The notes under the pieces: model-generated
What the model was told of the DNA's origin: nothing
Database searches by the model: none
Seen by the model: only the letters and a program-made list of their open reading frames with translations
In this document: piece by piece, positions 2,960 through 30,086 of the stretch
Layout of the letters: each line of letters starts with the position of its first letter
Numbering within the stretch: position 1 is the first letter of the stretch
Program-made: the position numbers and the translations under genes
Assembly (NCBI RefSeq): GCF_003334305.1
Contig: NZ_QOWS01000007.1
DNA from: Escherichia coli
GTDB lineage: Bacteria; Pseudomonadota; Gammaproteobacteria; Enterobacterales; Enterobacteriaceae
Reading direction: 5' to 3' (one strand)
DNA length: 64,000 nucleotides

Positions 2960-3814
2960 ATGGCACTGCCAGTGAACAAACGCGTTCCCAAAATTCTGTT
3001 TATTCTCTTTGTTGTTGCCTTCTGCGTTTATTTAGTGCCGCGCGTTGCCATCAACTTCTTCTATTATCCTGACGATAAAATTTACGGTCCCGACCCCTGG
3101 TCGGCGGAATCCGTCGAATTTACGGCTAAGGACGGTACTCGTCTGCAAGGCTGGTTTATTCCTTCTTCGACGGGCCCTGCTGACAACGCCATCGCAACCA
3201 TCATTCATGCTCACGGCAATGCCGGAAATATGTCCGCCCACTGGCCGCTGGTCAGTTGGTTACCCGAGCGTAATTTCAACGTTTTTATGTTTGATTATCG
3301 CGGGTTTGGTAAATCAAAAGGCACGCCGTCCCAGGCCGGATTGCTGGACGATACGCAAAGCGCCATCAATGTGGTGCGCCATCGCAGTGATGTAAACCCA
3401 CAACGGCTGGTGCTGTTCGGGCAGAGTATTGGCGGGGCGAATATTCTTGCTGTTATTGGTCAGGGTGATCGTGAAGGCATACGTGCGGTGATCCTCGACT
3501 CCACATTTGCCTCTTATGCAACCATCGCCAACCAGATGATCCCCGGCAGTGGCTACTTACTTGATGAGAGTTACAGCGGCGAAAATTATATCGCCAGCGT
3601 CAGCCCGATCCCGCTTTTACTCATTCACGGTAAAGCTGATCACGTTATCCCATGGCAGCACAGCGAAAAGTTGTATAGCCTGGCAAAAGAGCCAAAACGG
3701 TTGATCCTAATCCCGGATGGCGAACACATTGATGCTTTTTCCGATCGCCACAGCGATGTTTATCGCGAACAGATGGTGGACTTTATCCTTAGCGCGTTGA
3801 ATCCGCAGAACTAA
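2960..3814 (+). CDS. yfhR: Putative alpha/beta-hydrolase (peptidase S9-like) with N-terminal membrane anchor YfhR, 284 aa
   Basis: ORF track 2933..3814; start moved to ATG 2960 (MALPVNKR...) which follows a GGAAAGG RBS; hydrophobic N-terminus and GQSIGG nucleophile-elbow-like motif. Confidence 0.8.
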   Translation: MALPVNKRVPKILFILFVVAFCVYLVPRVAINFFYYPDDKIYGPDPWSAESVEFTAKDGTRLQGWFIPSSTGPADNAIATIIHAHGNAGNMSAHWPLVSWLPERNFNVFMFDYRGFGKSKGTPSQAGLLDDTQSAINVVRHRSDVNPQRLVLFGQSIGGANILAVIGQGDREGIRAVILDSTFASYATIANQMIPGSGYLLDESYSGENYIASVSPIPLLLIHGKADHVIPWQHSEKLYSLAKEPKRLILIPDGEHIDAFSDRHSDVYREQMVDFILSALNPQN

Positions 3815-16953: not shown

Positions 16954-17937
16954 TTAGGGCAGACCATCAACGTGCGTTGCCAGCCACTGTTTACCATCTT
17001 CCGTTTTGGTATAGAGATCGATTGGCACCTGAATCACTTTTTCACCGTCGGCTTGTTTATTGATAACCTTCAATGTTTGCGCGAAAACAGCATTGCCCAT
17101 TTTCTTACCGGAAATATCCACTACCGCTTTCAGCACCTGATTGTTTTCCAGCTCCTGAGCAATTTCGGTTGTCATATCCGAACCGAAAACAGCAATTTTT
17201 CCGGCCTGATTTTGATTACGTACCGCTTTTACCGCGCCGAGTGTCGCACCGCCCGACTCCCCCATAATGGCGTTGAGATCCGGCGTGGAGATAATCAGTT
17301 TTTCACCAACGGAAATCGCTTTATCTAAAACAGTCCCTTCCTGATTAGCGACAATTTGCGCGCCGGGAACGCGGGATTTTAATACTTCTTCAAATCCTTT
17401 ACGTCGCTGCACACAAACTTCAAAGGCTTCGCAATTGATGACGGCAATTTTCGGCTGGTCAATTTTATTGGCAATAAAATAATCGGCGGCAGCGTTACCC
17501 AGTTTTTTACCAAATTCCAGTGGATCGCCGACCAGATACGCCGAGACATATTTATCGACACCCTTTTGATTAATACAGGTGTTGTAGCAAATCACCGGAA
17601 TACCCGCTTCACTGGCGCGACGAACGGTACGGCTACTGCCATTTTCAGACACTGCCGATAAAATAATGGCATCGACATTACGCGCCACGAGGGTATCAAC
17701 AAAGGTACTTTCTTTCGAAATATCACCCTGGGCGTTAGTTTCAATTAACTGTACCTGTACTGAAGAATCTTTTGCCGCATCCTGAACGCCCTGACGCACT
17801 CCAGCGTAATATCCCTGGGTATCAAGGTATATTGCACCAATGGTCATCTCTTTATCCGCAGCCCTGGCAAATAGTGCGCTACCTAATAGCGTACCCATTA
17901 ATAATAGATTACGGGTTGTTCTCATTTTTTTAGGCAT
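16954..17937 (-). CDS. yphF: Periplasmic sugar-binding protein of ABC transporter YphF, 327 aa
   Basis: ORF track 16954..17937; N-terminal signal-peptide-like segment, RbsB-like. Confidence 0.85.
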   Translation of the reverse strand: MPKKMRTTRNLLLMGTLLGSALFARAADKEMTIGAIYLDTQGYYAGVRQGVQDAAKDSSVQVQLIETNAQGDISKESTFVDTLVARNVDAIILSAVSENGSSRTVRRASEAGIPVICYNTCINQKGVDKYVSAYLVGDPLEFGKKLGNAAADYFIANKIDQPKIAVINCEAFEVCVQRRKGFEEVLKSRVPGAQIVANQEGTVLDKAISVGEKLIISTPDLNAIMGESGGATLGAVKAVRNQNQAGKIAVFGSDMTTEIAQELENNQVLKAVVDISGKKMGNAVFAQTLKVINKQADGEKVIQVPIDLYTKTEDGKQWLATHVDGLP

Positions 17938-18033
17938 AGTGCCTCCTGTAGGGTTTTTATTAACAACGGCTTATTCTAATTATTTTGTGATGAGCGGCAG
18001 CGCGTGCCGCTCAAATATTACAGTTAATAGGGT

Positions 18034-21000
18034 TTAGTGAACGTAGTTAAAAATAAAAGGCATCACGGTGGTGAATAATGCCGCTTTCGGCCAGGCCGGA
18101 TTAATCGCCGTCAATTCAGCGCGAGCAGATTCATATTGCGCAACCTCCCCGAGTCCCGCGGACGCCAGCATCGCCACCATCAGGCATTTTTCTTTATGCT
18201 GCTGTTGTAAATCGCCATACAGCGACAACAGGTCAGGTTGTGAAACAGCAAAGAAATCCGCCTCAATACTGGTTTTCGCCATCTCTTGCGCCCACTGTTT
18301 CATTTCACTAAACAGTTGCTGTGCGGTTTGCTGTTCACCCAGCAGTCGCAGCGCCATTCCTTGCCAGAAGAGATAATCAACCGGCTGATCGTTGTAATAA
18401 CTGTGGATGTTAATGGTGCGATCGCCGGTCGCCGCCAGACGTAAACAACGCATCGCTTCAGTTTCATCGCCCTGCGCGTTGGCGCATATCGCCTGCCAGA
18501 ACCAGATGTCGTTATCAGTTTGCCCCGGTAAACGGCCTTCGCTTAAATTCTCCGGATAATGCAGCGCGGCATGAAGCAGTTCGCTGGCCTGCTGCGGCTC
18601 TCTGGCATCAAGATGCTGCCAGGCGCGTAATAACTGGTTGAGGATAAACTGACTGGTGACCTTCCCTTCCCCGCCTTCCCACGGGTGGAATTTGCGCGTG
18701 GCGAGAATGTCCGCCGCTTTGTCTGCCTGACCCGTGAGATGCCACAAATTGAGCAACTCTGCTGTCATGTCGTCGCGTTTCAGCGCAATTTCCAGATTAT
18801 TTTCCAGACGCGCCAGTCGTTTCTCCGGTGTGGCTCCGCTTAACTTATCAAGCAAATCCCGTTCGAAAAGCAGACGTGCATCCTGCGGCGCAAGCTGATA
18901 AGCATTATCAAGATAACGCGCGGCCAGCTCATAATCGTGTTGCTTATTCCACGCATGGATCGCTAACCCGCGCCAGCCGTCGGCAAACTCCGGCGACATC
19001 TCTACGCAACGTTGCCATAAGGTAATGGCTTTGTTGTAGCTACGCTTGTTGTAGTAGAAGCAGGCCAGTAAATGACGGGCAAACCAGCACTCTTCAATAC
19101 TCTCCAGCGCCGCCACTTCTTCCAGCGTATTCGGGAAACGGACAAACTGCGGGAAGACATCAATGGCTTTTGCGACCAGTTCGCCGCGTTCGGCTTTCGG
19201 CAATAAACTCGCCTGCAGGTAAAGCGGCAGCGTGCGCTGGCAGTCCAGTGCGTTCAGCATCTCTGCCGCCAGGGTGGGCATTCCCCAGTTAATCAGTTGC
19301 CCGGCGGTCATCAGAGCGTTAACGTCGCGTCCCTGACACAGACCGCGCCACTGCGCGAGAGCTGATTCGCTACGACCATCGAACCAGTTCAGCCACCACA
19401 GAGTGGCGTTCAGCGGATAATCGCGCAGCAGTTTCTCGCGCTGCACACGCGCGTTGTCCTGACGACCACTTAACACCAGCAGCAGATTATGCAGGCAAAG
19501 CACTTCCTGATTGGTTGGGCAGGCGCGAAGACTTTGTTGGCAAAAATCCAGACCAGCGTCGAAGTTACCATTACGCGCCGCCAGTCGTGCCAGGCCATAA
19601 TAGCCACCGGCTTTGCTGTTGCCGCTCCAGACCGCACGCCAGAAATCCTCTTCGGCTTGTTGATATTGTCCCTGACGTTCGTAAGCACTGGCGCGAATCA
19701 AACTGGCCTGTCCGCACTGCGGATTTTTGTTCAGCGCATGTGCGCGTTTCAGCGCCTGAGTGGCATACGCCACCGCTTGCGGGAAATCGGCGCGGTTATA
19801 TTCCAGCATCGCCAGCGCCAGGTTACAGCGGTAATCCAGCGGATCCAGCACCACGCCGCGCAGGTAGTAATCGAACGGTGAACGGCTGGCGTGATGATAT
19901 TGCTCCAGATGCTGACCGATAAACCAGGCTTCATCTGTACTGGTAATGTCTTGTGCTGCCAGTGGCGCTTTGGCGACGTCCGGCAACGGCAACTCTTGCG
20001 GCTGATGTTCCTGATAACTCAGTACAATATTGCCGTCGGCATCGGAGAGCTCAATGGTCAGCCTTTCAGGATTGATACCGTGCAACACGCCCTGGATGGC
20101 GGTCGCAGGCATCAGTGCCACGGCATCATCAAGTAACGCGTTGCATTTGCCGATTTCGCGGATCGCCAGGCGGTATCCGTTCAACGGAGAGATGGCATAC
20201 AGCCCCCACTCAATCCCCCGCTTACTACGCTGGAGTTTTATCACCGCATCGCGGGAGGCATTTTGCACCATGCCCAAAGAATGATAAGGCAGGAAATACT
20301 GCTCAAAACGCATCTCTTCGTAAGCATCAAGCCAGGTAAAATCGGGCTGGTTATCGGCAAAAATACCGGTCATCAGTTCGATATACGGGCCGTTATTGTC
20401 GGTCAGACTCTTATCCCACGCCTGGCCAAATTCACTGTGTCCCCAACTCCACTGTTTTTTACCTGGCGCGATATGGTGGTTGGCAACGTGCAGCAAACCG
20501 CCATCTTCATCGTGACACCACGCGCCGACAAAATCGTACTGCGATTTTTCGGCCATATATGAGGTTGGAACAGGCACATTTTTATAGCGAGAAATGTCCA
20601 CTCCGGCGGAGTAGTCCACTTTGTAGTAAGTGCCGGTGGCGATGGGGAAAGCGGAGACGGCCCGTTTGCCGTGATCAAACACCGCAGTCACATCCGGTGG
20701 GAAAACGCTCTGATGCCCTTCCCCCCCTTTCACTGCCGGGTTGGCCCACCACAAGAAATGACGCGGCGTGGCGTTACCGTTATAGACGCGGCTGGCGATT
20801 TCCAGCGCCGCCCGTTCAGGACGCAGTGTGAAACCTGTCATCACCTGTAAACCGTGCATCGGCTCCGTTTCGCCGACCCACACCGTCTGTGCGCCGTCTT
20901 CATGGGCTTCGAGGGTGAAATCAACGGGCATAAAGGTGGTCGGGCGATGGTGTTGCGGCCAGTTAAACTCAATCCCGCCAGAGATCCACGGTCCCAGCAG

Positions 21001-21315
21001 CCCCACCAGCGCAGGTTTAATGACTTCATTGTGATAGACAAAATCGCGTTGTTTCACTTTATCCCATGCGCGATGCACACGACCGCCCAGTTCCGGCAGG
21101 ATCATCACTTTGATGTAGTCGTTTTCCAGCCACACCGCCTGCCAGGATTTCAGGGTTTTCTGCTCGCTCAGCGTATCGGTCACGCCGTAGGGATAAACCG
21201 CGCCGGACGATCCCTGATAAACGCGATTTTCCAAGAACATGGGATGTATATCCTGCGGCCCGGTTTCATAGGTCGGGATCTCAACGCGCTCTTGCCACAC
21301 TTTTACTGGAGTCAT
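18034..21315 (-). CDS. yphG: Large uncharacterised protein YphG (N-terminal domain of unknown function plus C-terminal TPR repeats), 1093 aa
   Basis: ORF track 18034..21408; start set to ATG 21313-21315, preceded by a GAGGG RBS; the longer form would need a TTG start with no RBS. Confidence 0.8.
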   Translation of the reverse strand: MTPVKVWQERVEIPTYETGPQDIHPMFLENRVYQGSSGAVYPYGVTDTLSEQKTLKSWQAVWLENDYIKVMILPELGGRVHRAWDKVKQRDFVYHNEVIKPALVGLLGPWISGGIEFNWPQHHRPTTFMPVDFTLEAHEDGAQTVWVGETEPMHGLQVMTGFTLRPERAALEIASRVYNGNATPRHFLWWANPAVKGGEGHQSVFPPDVTAVFDHGKRAVSAFPIATGTYYKVDYSAGVDISRYKNVPVPTSYMAEKSQYDFVGAWCHDEDGGLLHVANHHIAPGKKQWSWGHSEFGQAWDKSLTDNNGPYIELMTGIFADNQPDFTWLDAYEEMRFEQYFLPYHSLGMVQNASRDAVIKLQRSKRGIEWGLYAISPLNGYRLAIREIGKCNALLDDAVALMPATAIQGVLHGINPERLTIELSDADGNIVLSYQEHQPQELPLPDVAKAPLAAQDITSTDEAWFIGQHLEQYHHASRSPFDYYLRGVVLDPLDYRCNLALAMLEYNRADFPQAVAYATQALKRAHALNKNPQCGQASLIRASAYERQGQYQQAEEDFWRAVWSGNSKAGGYYGLARLAARNGNFDAGLDFCQQSLRACPTNQEVLCLHNLLLVLSGRQDNARVQREKLLRDYPLNATLWWLNWFDGRSESALAQWRGLCQGRDVNALMTAGQLINWGMPTLAAEMLNALDCQRTLPLYLQASLLPKAERGELVAKAIDVFPQFVRFPNTLEEVAALESIEECWFARHLLACFYYNKRSYNKAITLWQRCVEMSPEFADGWRGLAIHAWNKQHDYELAARYLDNAYQLAPQDARLLFERDLLDKLSGATPEKRLARLENNLEIALKRDDMTAELLNLWHLTGQADKAADILATRKFHPWEGGEGKVTSQFILNQLLRAWQHLDAREPQQASELLHAALHYPENLSEGRLPGQTDNDIWFWQAICANAQGDETEAMRCLRLAATGDRTINIHSYYNDQPVDYLFWQGMALRLLGEQQTAQQLFSEMKQWAQEMAKTSIEADFFAVSQPDLLSLYGDLQQQHKEKCLMVAMLASAGLGEVAQYESARAELTAINPAWPKAALFTTVMPFIFNYVH

Positions 21316-21432
21316 GGTGCCCTCAATATTAACAAGACATACTGAATTAAAAGATTTGTGGCAGTGTATTGAACAATCTGGCAATGTTTTCGCGGAATAA
21401 TCACGCAATTAACTAAACAAGGTTTAGTGAAG

Positions 21433-22626
21433 ATGAGAGCCTGCATTAACAATCAACAGATTCGCCACCATAACAAATGCGTGATTCTGGAACTGCTGTA
21501 CCGGCAAAAGCGCGCCAATAAATCAACGCTGGCCCGGCTGGCGCAAATTTCGATTCCGGCAGTCAGTAATATTTTGCAGGAACTGGAAAGCGAAAAACGG
21601 GTGGTGAATATCGACGATGAAAGCCAGACGCGCGGGCATAGTAGCGGTACATGGCTGATTGCGCCGGAAGGTGACTGGACGCTGTGCCTGAACGTGACGC
21701 CCACCAGTATTGAGTGTCAGGTTGCTAATGCTTGTTTAAGTCCGAAAGGCGAGTTTGAGTATTTACAGATTGATGCACCGACGCCGCAGGCGCTGCTGTC
21801 CGAAATCGAAAAATGCTGGCATCGCCACCGTAAATTGTGGCCGGACCGCACCATCAATCTGGCGCTGGCAATCCACGGTCAGGTTGATCCGGTGACCGGC
21901 GTGTCGCAAACCATGCCGCAAGCGCCGTGGACAACGCCGGTGGAGGTGAAATATCTGCTGGAAGAGAAGCTCGGCATTCGGGTGATGGTCGATAATGACT
22001 GCGTGATGCTGGCGCTGGCGGAGAAATGGCAAAATAATTCGCAGGAACGGGATTTCTGCGTGATCAACGTTGATTACGGCATTGGCTCGTCGTTCGTGAT
22101 TAACGAGCAAATTTATCGCGGCAGTTTGTATGGTAGCGGACAGATTGGTCACACCATCGTTAATCCGGATGGCGTCGTCTGCGACTGTGGACGTTACGGC
22201 TGCCTGGAAACCGTCGCCTCGTTAAGTGCTTTAAAAAAACAGGCGCGGGTATGGCTAAAATCACAACCGGTTAATACTCAGCTTGATCCTGAAAAACTGA
22301 CAACCGCGCAGTTAATCGCTGCCTGGCAGAGTGGAGAACCGTGGATCACCAGCTGGGTTGACCGCAGTGCCAATGCCATTGGTTTGAGTCTGTATAACTT
22401 CCTCAACATCCTCAATATTAATCAGATTTGGTTGTACGGTCGCAGTTGTGCCTTTGGTGAGAACTGGCTTAATACTATTATTCGCCAGACAGGATTTAAC
22501 CCGTTCGACCGCGACGAAGGACCGAGCGTGAAAGCGACGCAAATTGGCTTCGGGCAATTAAGCCGCGCACAACAGGTGCTGGGAATTGGCTATTTGTATG
22601 TTGAGGCGCAGTTACGACAGATTTGA
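21433..22626 (+). CDS. yphH: ROK (NagC/XylR) family transcriptional regulator YphH, 397 aa
   Basis: ORF track 21427..22626 (GTG); first ATG at 21433 used; N-terminal HTH and ROK-type Cys cluster (CDCGRYGC). Confidence 0.8.
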   Translation: MRACINNQQIRHHNKCVILELLYRQKRANKSTLARLAQISIPAVSNILQELESEKRVVNIDDESQTRGHSSGTWLIAPEGDWTLCLNVTPTSIECQVANACLSPKGEFEYLQIDAPTPQALLSEIEKCWHRHRKLWPDRTINLALAIHGQVDPVTGVSQTMPQAPWTTPVEVKYLLEEKLGIRVMVDNDCVMLALAEKWQNNSQERDFCVINVDYGIGSSFVINEQIYRGSLYGSGQIGHTIVNPDGVVCDCGRYGCLETVASLSALKKQARVWLKSQPVNTQLDPEKLTTAQLIAAWQSGEPWITSWVDRSANAIGLSLYNFLNILNINQIWLYGRSCAFGENWLNTIIRQTGFNPFDRDEGPSVKATQIGFGQLSRAQQVLGIGYLYVEAQLRQI

Positions 22627-30053: not shown

Positions 30054-30086
30054 ATGCCGGATGCGGCGTAAATGCCGCATCCGGGC
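30054..30086. repeat. REP-like palindromic element downstream of purL
   Basis: gccggatgcggcgtaaatgccgcatccgggc, REP-type palindrome. Confidence 0.7.

What the first reader, a model, noticed from the sequence alone, without database searches (positions are those of the whole stretch)
17938..18033. Hairpin in the yphG-yphF spacer
The 96-bp gap inside the minus-strand yph operon contains gagcggca-gcgcg-tgccgctc, a GC-rich hairpin without a U-tract. It could act as an mRNA stabiliser or partial terminator separating yphG from the transporter genes.
Basis: seen in the sequence. Interest (0 to 1): 0.2.

Follow-up and report, generated by a model that had tools for sequence, protein, structure and literature searches.

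The report
Conserved hairpin ending the yphG cistron
The GC-rich hairpin between the E. coli genes yphG and yphF is real and conserved across several genera, and most likely protects or marks the end of the yphG message; it is an ordinary kind of element, but it sits inside what looks like an unrecognised internal promoter with a binding site for the uncharacterised regulator YphH.

Summary
On the mRNA-sense (minus) strand, window 18013-17991 reads U-GAGCGGCA-cgcgc-UGCCGCUC-A. That is a 9-bp stem with a 5-nt loop (-16 kcal/mol), 20 nt after the yphG stop, with no U-tract on either strand.

It is not chance and not a REP repeat. It is single-copy in 5412 of 5426 E. coli genomes, and the sampled E. 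coli variants change only the loop. The same GAGCGGC/GCCGCUC stem follows yphG in Escherichia, Enterobacter, Citrobacter, Raoultella, Phytobacter and Entomohabitans. The few stem changes are mostly G.U wobbles or compensatory. A different hairpin, also without a U-tract, follows yphG homologues that precede an MFS transporter gene.

Best reading: an RNA stem-loop that bounds or protects the 3' end of the yphG cistron. It is not a canonical terminator.

The spacer is not a plain intra-operon gap. The 23 bp before the hairpin are a second copy of a palindrome, TTCACTAAAC-N3-GTTWACTGTA. That palindrome abuts the divergent yphH start in 33 loci. In both places a -10-like hexamer lies 39-40 nt downstream. 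An internal YphH-controlled yphF promoter is therefore likely.

No published end-mapping covers this poorly expressed locus, so the function is inferred. Interest is low to moderate.

The parts
17991..18013 (-). The hairpin. On the mRNA-sense strand: 5' arm UGAGCGGCA (18013-18005), loop CGCGC (18004-18000), 3' arm UGCCGCUCA (17999-17991). 9 bp, -16.0 kcal/mol, no U-tract.
   Evidence: The stem is invariant in the sampled E. coli strains. The core GAGCGGC/GCCGCUC is conserved in the 14 sequences of alignment A2, which cover several genera.
17938..18033 (-). The yphG-yphF spacer, 96 nt.
   Evidence: The length is 96 nt in all E. coli strains sampled.
18019..18041 (-). Operator-like site 2: TTCACTAAACCCTATTAACTGTA. 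It overlaps the yphG stop codon (18036-18034) and ends 5 nt before the hairpin. It matches the site-1 consensus at 22 of 23 positions. Candidate binding site of the ROK-family regulator YphH.
   Evidence: The same motif occupies the same place in 11 of 16 yph-type taxa. In Budvicia it lies in a different register relative to the stop codon, so coding does not explain its conservation.
17973..17978 (-). -10-like hexamer TAGAAT (TAAAAT in some E. coli strains), 40 nt after site 2. It predicts a yphF transcription start near 17966.
   Evidence: The 39-40-nt spacing from site 2 holds in 11 of 11 taxa, and the same geometry occurs at the yphG promoter. The best -35 match is only 3 of 6, and the promoter scan does not call it.
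17942..17947 (-). yphF Shine-Dalgarno AGGAGG, inside the conserved block CCCTACAGGAGG.
16954..17937 (-). yphF, the periplasmic binding protein of the YphDEF sugar ABC transporter. Downstream gene.
18034..21315 (-). yphG, a DUF5107 protein. This is the upstream gene whose cistron the hairpin ends.
21409..21431 (-). Operator-like site 1: TTCACTAAACCTTGTTTAGTTAA. It abuts the divergent yphH start codon at 21433.
   Evidence: It is present next to a YphH orthologue in 33 Enterobacterales loci.
21363..21368 (-). -10-like hexamer TACACT of the presumed yphG promoter, exactly 40 nt after site 1.
   Evidence: A TA(C/A/G)ACT-type hexamer sits at this offset in 33 of 33 loci.

Best explanation
The inverted repeat folds in yphG-containing transcripts into a stable stem-loop that ribosomes do not reach. 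It begins 20 nt after the yphG stop codon.

Because no U-run follows it, RNA polymerase mostly reads through. The stem-loop therefore works mainly after transcription. Once the transcript is cut or ends downstream, the stem blocks 3'-to-5' exonucleases (PNPase, RNase II). This defines and protects the 3' end of the yphG cistron and uncouples its level from that of the transporter genes.

It lies at a junction, not in the middle of a simple operon. Immediately upstream is a second copy of the presumed YphH operator, and 40 nt after that operator is a -10-like box. The transporter genes yphFEDCB therefore probably also have their own YphH-controlled promoter. On the DNA the hairpin occupies about -47 to -25 of that promoter.

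Shown here: the existence of the hairpin, its conservation, its single-copy status, the absence of a U-tract, and the repeated operator/-10 geometry.
Inferred: RNA-level action, exonuclease protection, YphH binding, and promoter activity.
For: (1) The structure is real and stable.

(2) Purifying selection acts on the stem.
- It is invariant in the sampled E. coli strains, where three different SNPs all fall in the loop.
- Eleven of the 14 core stem columns are invariant across the 14 sequences of alignment A2, while the loop varies in sequence and in length, 5-7 nt.

(3) The changes that do occur suit an RNA helix on the mRNA strand.
- The closing pair is A-U, G.U or C-G.
- Three independent transitions give G.U or U.G in the sense strand; these would be A/C mismatches in the antisense strand.
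- The base of the stem is extended by U-A to C-G and by a new G-C pair in UBA3516 and Entomohabitans.
- Raoultella ornithinolytica lost one pair and refolds using a downstream CUCGAG.

(4) The variable loop length argues against a dimeric DNA-binding site.

(5) The hairpin goes with the 3' end of the DUF5107 gene rather than with the promoter.
- It persists in Enterobacter BIGb0383 and RIT691, which lack site 2 and the -10-like box.
- About 13 loci where the yphG homologue precedes an MFS transporter gene also have a GC-rich hairpin without a U-tract, 9-21 nt after the stop, and no site 2.
- There is no hairpin where the next gene is a closely abutting mutarotase-like gene.

(6) It is single-copy in 5412 of 5426 E. 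coli genomes, so it is not a dispersed repeat.

(7) The junction character of the spacer is supported by:
- the site-2 motif and the 39-40-nt spacing to TAGAAT/TAAAAT/TACACT, which mirrors the yphG promoter;
- co-loss of site 2, the hairpin and the -10-like box in the three taxa with 26-30-nt spacers;
- the RNA-seq assembly of Li et al. 2013 (PMC3734233), whose table of units consistent across samples lists yphG alone for all seven. In the three conditions whose unit coordinates I recovered, the unit containing yphF starts at window 17985 in LB and 17968 after 15 min heat shock, both just 3' of the hairpin.
Against: - There is no direct evidence of a 3' end at the hairpin. The Term-seq tables of Adams et al. 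2021 list none in yphG or yphF.
- In Li et al. the assembled yphG units stop 190-400 nt before the stop codon, so no protected 3' segment is visible. Coverage there is very low.
- Covariation is thin. Four of 11 pairs never vary, and shuffle controls reach the observed scores in 42-68 of 500 trials. The core is conserved as sequence, which pairing alone does not require.
- Sense and antisense folds have similar energies.
- The loop CTGACC(C) is shared by many genera, which an RNA-structure model does not explain.
- The three short-spacer taxa do without the hairpin.
- On the DNA the hairpin lies where an internal promoter would have its -35 or activator region, so a DNA-level role cannot be excluded.
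Confidence: 0.45

Rival explanations
1. The hairpin is a leaky transcription terminator or attenuator. It makes a fraction of polymerases stop at the end of yphG despite the missing U-tract, perhaps helped by NusA or by pausing. This would lower read-through into the transporter genes and insulate the internal promoter.
For: - It is a GC-rich 9-bp stem at the end of a cistron.
- In some relatives the tail is U-richer: RIT691 ...CUCAGUUUUCG, Citrobacter GCCGCUUUUCC and GCCGCUUUCUUC.
- The RNA-seq assembly separates yphG from yphDEF.
- Terminators overlapping the next promoter are common in E. coli (established knowledge).
Against: - E. coli has only 2 U in the 10 nt after the stem (1 in the first 8), and the consensus scan does not call the hairpin.
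- U-richness is not conserved across taxa, so termination cannot be the conserved function.
- No Term-seq 3' end is listed (a weak argument, because expression is low).
- The analogous hairpins in MFS-type loci also lack U-tracts.
Confidence: 0.2
2. The palindrome acts on the DNA, not in RNA. It would be part of the internal yphF promoter, for example the binding site of an activator, or the -35-region architecture around -36. The hairpin potential would then be incidental.
For: - The core GAGCGGC/GCCGCTC is conserved as sequence rather than by covariation.
- It sits at a fixed place between site 2 and the -10-like box, at about -47 to -25.
- The promoter has no recognisable -35, so it would need an activator.
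- The loop CTGACC(C) is conserved in many genera.
- Sense and antisense fold energies are similar.
Against: - Half-site spacing varies by 2 bp, because the loop is 5-7 nt long. Dimeric regulators rarely tolerate that.
- The single-sided transitions observed all keep pairing on the mRNA strand only.
- The hairpin is kept in two taxa that lost site 2 and the -10-like box.
- Budvicia keeps site 2, the 40-nt spacing and TAGAAT with a different intervening sequence.
- The yphG promoter, built the same way, has no such palindrome.
Confidence: 0.15
3. The hairpin serves the downstream message. RNase E would cut the AU-rich stretch just before it, so that the stem becomes the 5'-terminal stem-loop protecting a processed yphFEDCB mRNA.
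For: - The AU-rich single-stranded sequence UUAACUGUAAUAUUU lies directly 5' of the stem.
- 5' stem-loops are known stabilisers (ompA type; established knowledge).
Against: - The AU-rich stretch is better explained as the operator-like site 2.
- The 5' ends reported for the unit containing yphF lie 3' of the hairpin, not 5' of it.
- Analogous hairpins occur with a different downstream gene.
Confidence: 0.07
4. There is no function. The hairpin would be a chance palindrome or a decaying relic of an old terminator or inserted element.
For: Three taxa with 26-30-nt spacers lack it and keep the gene order. One E. coli strain carries an IS1 inside the 3' arm.
Against: - The chance expectation is about 0.01.
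- The stem is invariant in the sampled E. coli strains, whose three SNPs all fall in the loop, and the 33-nt segment around it is at least 95% identical in almost all of 5412 genomes.
- It is conserved across genera whose YphG proteins are only 65-77% identical, while the loop and flanks diverge.
Confidence: 0.05

Closest known systems
Intercistronic 3'-protective stem-loops, such as the REP hairpins in the malE-malF spacer of E. coli and the intercistronic hairpin of the Rhodobacter puf operon
   Same: It is a stable stem-loop in an untranslated spacer of a sugar-uptake gene cluster. It follows the upstream cistron and has no U-tract. The expected effect is differential abundance of the upstream and downstream segments.
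   Different: It is not a REP: it is single-copy and has no REP consensus. Here the hairpin follows a large cytoplasmic protein gene and precedes the binding-protein gene, the reverse of malE-malF. A stability effect has not been measured.
Intrinsic (Rho-independent) terminators
   Same: A GC-rich stem of 8-9 bp with a short loop at the end of a cistron. It overlaps the region upstream of the next probable promoter.
   Different: The defining U-tract is absent on both strands in E. coli and is not conserved in relatives.
3' ends at U-tract-less hairpins, produced by exonucleolytic trimming of Rho-terminated or processed transcripts as described from E. coli Term-seq work (recalled from the literature, not re-read here)
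   Same: A stable hairpin with no U-tract. It would mark where trimming stops.
   Different: No 3' end has been recorded at this site. The 96-nt spacer is short for Rho loading.
ROK-family repressor operators (NagC, Mlc, Bacillus XylR). This comparison is for the adjacent 23-bp palindrome, not for the hairpin
   Same: A palindrome of about 23 bp, AT-rich, next to the regulator's own divergent gene and its sugar-utilisation target, present in more than one copy per locus. YphH is described as the third, uncharacterised ROK repressor of E. coli (PMC4288165).
   Different: The sequence differs from the NagC and Mlc sites. Binding by YphH is untested. The second copy lies 3.4 kb away, at an internal junction.

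Membership tests
Intrinsic (Rho-independent) terminator | GC-rich stem-loop | tested here: met
   9-bp stem with 6 G-C pairs and a 5-nt loop, -16.0 kcal/mol.
Intrinsic (Rho-independent) terminator | A run of U immediately 3' of the stem | tested here: not met
   The sense tail is UCACAAAAUA and the antisense tail is AAUAUUACAG. The scan, which requires at least 5 T in 8 nt, does not call it.
Intrinsic (Rho-independent) terminator | Mapped RNA 3' end at the site | tested here: inconclusive
   No 3' end in yphG or yphF appears in the Term-seq supplements of PMC7815308. The locus is poorly expressed, and the stored files may be incomplete.
REP/BIME dispersed repeats | Many copies per genome | tested here: not met
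   Exactly one place per genome in 5412 E. coli genomes, and unique in the window.
REP/BIME dispersed repeats | REP consensus sequence or annotation | tested here: not met
   There is no resemblance to the GCCGGATGCGGCG-type REP present elsewhere in the window at 30057-30084. No repeat feature is annotated in the MG1655 stretch.
Curated RNA families (Rfam 15) | Match to a covariance model | tested here: not met
   Only chance-level hits were found (E = 1-5, far below the gathering scores) in 17000-19000.
Intercistronic mRNA-stabilising hairpin (a functional class) | Stable stem-loop in an untranslated spacer, out of reach of the terminating ribosome | tested here: met
   The stem starts 20 nt after the stop codon. 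Stability is given.
Intercistronic mRNA-stabilising hairpin (a functional class) | Structure maintained in evolution on the mRNA strand | tested here: inconclusive
   81% of cells are paired, against 26-51% for slid controls. Four pairs show changes on both sides, and wobbles are compatible only with the sense strand. However, the core never varies, and shuffles reach the observed scores in 42-68 of 500 trials.
Intercistronic mRNA-stabilising hairpin (a functional class) | The upstream segment outlives the downstream one, dependent on the stem | not testable with these tools
   This needs half-life measurements with stem mutants.
ROK-family operator (the adjacent site 2) | Palindrome of about 23 bp conserved next to the regulator gene and its target across species | tested here: met
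   The site-1 consensus TTCACTAAAC-yyy-GTTWACTGTA is found in 33 loci, each next to a YphH orthologue. Site 2 has the same consensus in 11 taxa. No hit of at least 16/20 occurred in 20 shuffles of the window.
ROK-family operator (the adjacent site 2) | Bound by the regulator (YphH) | not testable with these tools
   No ChIP, SELEX or footprint data for YphH were found in the library.
Sigma-70 promoter (internal, for yphF) | -10 and -35 hexamers at 16-18 bp | tested here: inconclusive
   TAGAAT matches 5 of 6, with T1, A2 and T6 conserved across taxa. The best -35 is CTGCCG, 3 of 6. The consensus scan does not call it, but it also calls nothing at the primary yphG/yphH promoter region.
Sigma-70 promoter (internal, for yphF) | Mapped primary 5' end | tested here: inconclusive
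   Only coverage-based 5' ends exist, at window 17985 and 17968 (PMC3734233). No entry was found in the Cappable-seq, SMRT-Cappable-seq or dRNA-seq supplements held.

The most novel reading that the evidence does not exclude
The nearly invariant GAGCGGC/GCCGCTC palindrome may be a dual-use element. As RNA it would cap the yphG message. As DNA, at about -36 of an internal promoter and at a fixed distance from a YphH operator, it would be the recognition site of a still unknown factor, or a structural element needed to fire a promoter that lacks a -35. One sequence would then couple the end of one transcription unit to the start of the next. This would explain why the stem is conserved as sequence and why the loop CTGACC is shared by many genera.
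Probability: 0.12. Interest if true: 0.45.

Novelty: new member of a known kind. Interest (0 to 1): 0.25.

Why it matters
The hairpin itself adds one more example to a well-known class. Its practical value is that it flags a mis-modelled locus. The yph cluster is usually read as a single yphGFEDCB operon under an uncharacterised regulator. The comparative data give a concrete, testable regulatory map: a 23-bp candidate YphH operator, two promoters built alike (operator, then 40 nt, then a -10 box), and a boundary hairpin between the enzyme-like gene and the transporter genes. That gives a starting point for de-orphaning YphH, one of the three ROK regulators of E. coli, and the DUF5107/YphDEF sugar system.

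Tried and rejected
- Rfam scan of 17000-19000 at E <= 10: chance-level hits only.
- Consensus terminator and promoter scans: nothing at the hairpin. Nothing was called at the primary yphG/yphH promoter either, so a negative scan carries little weight here.
- REP or dispersed-repeat idea: rejected, because the hairpin is single-copy.
- Direct experimental ends:
  - Term-seq supplements of PMC7815308 and PMC12207403, no entry.
  - Cappable-seq PMC4782308.
  - SMRT-Cappable-seq PMC6131387.
  - dRNA-seq PMC4681348.
  - Conway 2014 has no supplement held.
  - Only the coverage-based assembly of PMC3734233 mentions the locus.
- A metagenome scan anchored on the upstream block gave about 12 true yph hits and little new diversity. 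The other 50 were unrelated repeats.
- RNAalifold on the MFS-type spacers failed because MAFFT misaligned stems of different lengths. The single-sequence folds are the evidence for those hairpins.
- CRP site idea:
  - The conserved TTGCGTGA after site 1 has class II geometry (centre -41.5), but only one good half-site.
  - In the spacer, E. coli matches 4 of 10 and other genera 7 of 10.
  - Not claimed.
- Target-site-duplication idea (ACCCTA at both ends of the E. coli spacer): not conserved in other taxa, so dropped.
- Readthrough or SECIS-like reading of the hairpin: the stop codon is TAA in most taxa, so dropped.
- Strand asymmetry of fold energy: too small to decide between RNA and DNA roles.

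Full report
**1. Observation**

The window is E. coli. An 801-bp probe around the site matches 5422 of 5426 complete E. coli genomes, always on the chromosome, under the genes annotated yphG (DUF5107 protein) and yphF (sugar ABC-transporter binding protein). Annotation of an identical strain and of MG1655 gives the order yphH> <yphG <yphF <yphE <yphD <yphC <yphB.

- The yphG stop codon is at 18036-18034 and the yphF ATG at 17937-17935.
- On the mRNA-sense (minus) strand, 18013-17991 reads U GAGCGGCA CGCGC UGCCGCUC A.
- The MFE fold makes nine pairs with a 5-nt loop. The hairpin alone has -16.0 kcal/mol.
- Neither strand has a U-run after the stem, and the terminator scan does not call it.
- Rfam has nothing for it.

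**2. Is it more than chance?**

- Perfect hairpins of at least 8 bp are enriched in the window over dinucleotide shuffles: 28 counts, about 16 distinct, against 7.8 +/- 3.7. The expectation for one in a given 96-nt stretch is about 0.01.
- The hairpin is unique in the window. It has exactly one place per genome in 5412 E. coli genomes and is never annotated. It is therefore not a REP/BIME or other dispersed repeat.
- Among diverse E. coli strains the spacer is always 96 nt and the stem never changes. The three SNPs seen are all in the loop. One strain has an IS1 inserted in the 3' arm.

**3. Relatives**

A scan of one genome per species with the YphG C-terminus returned 17 loci in which yphG is followed by yphF.

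- Thirteen of these have GAGCGGC-loop-GCCGCUC 13-21 nt after the stop. They are E. coli, E. albertii, three Enterobacter-like taxa, two Citrobacter, two Raoultella, Phytobacter, UBA3516 and Entomohabitans.
- Three taxa have a 26-30-nt spacer with no hairpin. Budvicia has a different sequence.
- In the 14-sequence alignment the core of the stem is nearly invariant, while the loop differs in sequence and length (5-7 nt) and the 3' flank diverges.
- Pair counts: 81% of cells are paired, against 26-51% when the partner is slid. The closing pair is A-U, G.U or C-G, and the base pair is U-A, C-G or U.G. Three independent single-sided transitions all give G.U or U.G on the mRNA strand. One pair is broken in R. 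ornithinolytica, which refolds with a downstream CUCGAG.
- The support is real but thin. Four pairs never vary, and shuffles reach the observed scores in 42-68 of 500 trials. Sense and antisense energies are similar.
- A metagenome scan anchored on the upstream block added only about 12 true hits with the same stem.

**4. A second class of loci**

In about 13 Enterobacterales genomes (Cedecea, Buttiauxella, Mixta and others) the yphG homologue, 47-51% identical, is followed by an MFS sugar porter gene instead of yphF.

- There too the 65-90-nt spacer begins with a GC-rich hairpin without a U-tract, 9-21 nt after the stop. It has the form GGCGGG...CCCGCY with apical parts of different length and sequence.
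- Where the next gene is a closely abutting mutarotase-like gene, there is no hairpin.
- So a hairpin after the DUF5107 gene goes with a following transporter gene, whatever that gene is. This ties the element to the 3' end of the upstream cistron.

**5. The spacer is not a passive gap**

- The 20 conserved nucleotides between the stop and the hairpin, together with the last codons of yphG, form TTCACTAAACCCTATTAACTGTA (18041-18019).
- A near-perfect palindrome of the same kind, TTCACTAAACCTTGTTTAGTTAA, lies at 21431-21409, touching the yphH start codon.
- Scanning the loci shows this motif at essentially these two places only.
- The site-1 consensus over 33 loci is TTCACTAAAC-yyy-GTTWACTGTA. 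In every case it sits next to a divergent YphH orthologue, including the MFS-type and mutarotase-type loci.
- Site 2 has the same consensus in 11 of 16 yph-type taxa. In Budvicia it lies in a different register relative to the stop codon, so coding constraint does not explain it.
- In the window, hits of at least 16/20 are site 1, site 2 and one site just upstream of nadB, probably a NadR box. Twenty shuffles gave none.
- YphH is described as the third, uncharacterised ROK repressor of E. coli (PMC4288165). No binding data were found.

**6. Promoter geometry**

- Exactly 40 nt after site 1, all 33 loci have a -10-like hexamer: TACACT in E. coli (21368-21363), and TAAACT, TAGACT, TAGAAT or CAAACT elsewhere.
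- At 39-40 nt after site 2, all 11 taxa have TAGAAT, TAAAAT or TACACT. In E. coli it is TAGAAT at 17978-17973. Budvicia keeps this spacing although its intervening sequence is different.
- Site 2 and this box occur together in 11 taxa and are absent together in five. The hairpin persists in two of those five.
- Within E. coli the box varies only between TAGAAT and TAAAAT.
- Neither promoter has a good -35, and the consensus scan calls neither.
- I conclude that an internal, YphH-controlled yphF promoter is likely, with a predicted start near 17966. On the DNA the hairpin then occupies about -47 to -25.

**7. Experimental record**

- Term-seq tables list no 3' end in yphG or yphF.
- TSS-type supplements that are held do not mention the locus.
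- The RNA-seq assembly of Li et al. 2013 lists yphG as a single-gene unit in its table of units consistent across all seven samples.
- In the three conditions whose unit coordinates I recovered (LB, 15 and 30 min heat shock), the 5' end of the unit containing yphF maps to window 17985 in LB and 17968 after 15 min heat shock, just 3' of the hairpin.
- The assembled yphG units end 190-400 nt before the stop codon. Coverage is low and the ends are imprecise.
- This fits a junction of two units. It does not show a protected 3' end.

**8. Mechanism**

The best-supported reading (0.45) is an RNA stem-loop that bounds and protects the 3' end of yphG-containing transcripts against 3' exonucleases, with at most weak termination. 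It lies at the junction with a separately promoted transporter unit. Rivals:

- a genuinely leaky terminator (0.2);
- a DNA-level promoter element (0.15);
- a 5' cap for a processed yphF message (0.07);
- no function (0.05).

The sequence-level conservation of the stem and the shared CTGACC loop remain unexplained by a pure structure model.

**9. Comparison and novelty**

Functionally the hairpin resembles the intercistronic protective hairpins of malE-malF and puf. It also resembles the hairpins without U-tracts at which trimmed transcripts end. It fails the defining test of an intrinsic terminator (no U-tract) and of REP elements (single copy). It is a new member of a known kind. The operator pair and the twin promoter geometry are, as far as the searched literature shows, undescribed, and they are the more useful by-product.

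**10. Verdict**

Interest is low to moderate (0.25).

Noticed in passing
window 18019-18041 and 21409-21431 (minus strand): There are two copies of a 23-bp palindrome, TTCACTAAAC-N3-GTTWACTGTA. One abuts the yphH start codon and the other overlaps the yphG stop codon. The motif is conserved next to YphH orthologues in 33 Enterobacterales loci. It is a candidate operator of the uncharacterised ROK regulator YphH.
   Followed up: yes
window 21363-21368 and 17973-17978 (minus strand): -10-like hexamers (TACACT and TAGAAT) lie 39-40 nt downstream of each operator copy in every taxon that has the operator. After site 1 there is also a conserved TTGCGTGA box, whose geometry would suit a class II CRP site. 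Only one half-site is good, so this is untested.
   Followed up: partly
window 18049-18082 (minus strand), inside the last 50 nt of yphG: A terminator-like site, GGCAUUAUUCACCACCGUGAUGCC followed by UUUUAUUUUU, lies within the coding sequence (the run encodes P-F-I-F). The U-run is kept in E. coli and E. albertii and lost in other genera. It is probably masked by translation.
   Followed up: partly
L015-L021, L028, L120 and L134, about 45 nt after hairpin 1; absent from the window: Most non-Escherichia yph loci have a second hairpin between the -10-like box and the yphF ribosome-binding site. Its stem sequence differs between lineages: UCUGCGGCA/UGCCGCAGA, UCGGCGGCA/UGCCGCCGG, CAGCG/CGCUG, GUUACCGGUC/GACCGGUAAC. 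E. coli and E. albertii have lost about 44 nt here. In Raoultella and Citrobacter, AUAUGUG just after the -10-like box could also pair with CACGUAU at the yphF start.
   Followed up: partly
L024, L027, L029-L038 and L047, about 3690-3790: In these loci the yphG homologue is followed by a 479-aa MFS sugar porter gene. The spacer has its own hairpin without a U-tract. It then has CCCTACAA or CTCTACAAG before the ribosome-binding site, the same CCCTACA block that precedes the yphF ribosome-binding site. Many of these loci also have a third operator-like copy 84 bp downstream of site 1.
   Followed up: partly
window 48838-48860, just upstream of the nadB ATG at 48874: TTTACTAAACACTGTTTGGTCAG scores 16/20 against the yph palindrome. 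It is probably the NadR box of nadB, sharing the AAAC...GTTT core, and not a YphH site.
   Followed up: partly
L153 (E. coli strain 2018-05-5CC), equivalent to window ~17994: An IS1 is inserted inside the 3' arm of the hairpin, separating yphG from yphF.
   Followed up: no
window 17898-17945 and 18018-18069 (plus strand): Li et al. 2013 list two short antisense (forward-strand) transcribed fragments flanking the hairpin, at U00096.2 coordinates 2677350-2677397 and 2677470-2677521. I found no convincing promoter for them.
   Followed up: no
L012 (contig CACSKA010000009.1): The record is titled Chryseobacterium sp. 18061 but carries an enterobacterial yphH-yphG-yphF locus, 74% (YphG) and 90% (YphF) identical to E. 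coli. The assembly is probably mislabelled or contaminated.
   Followed up: no
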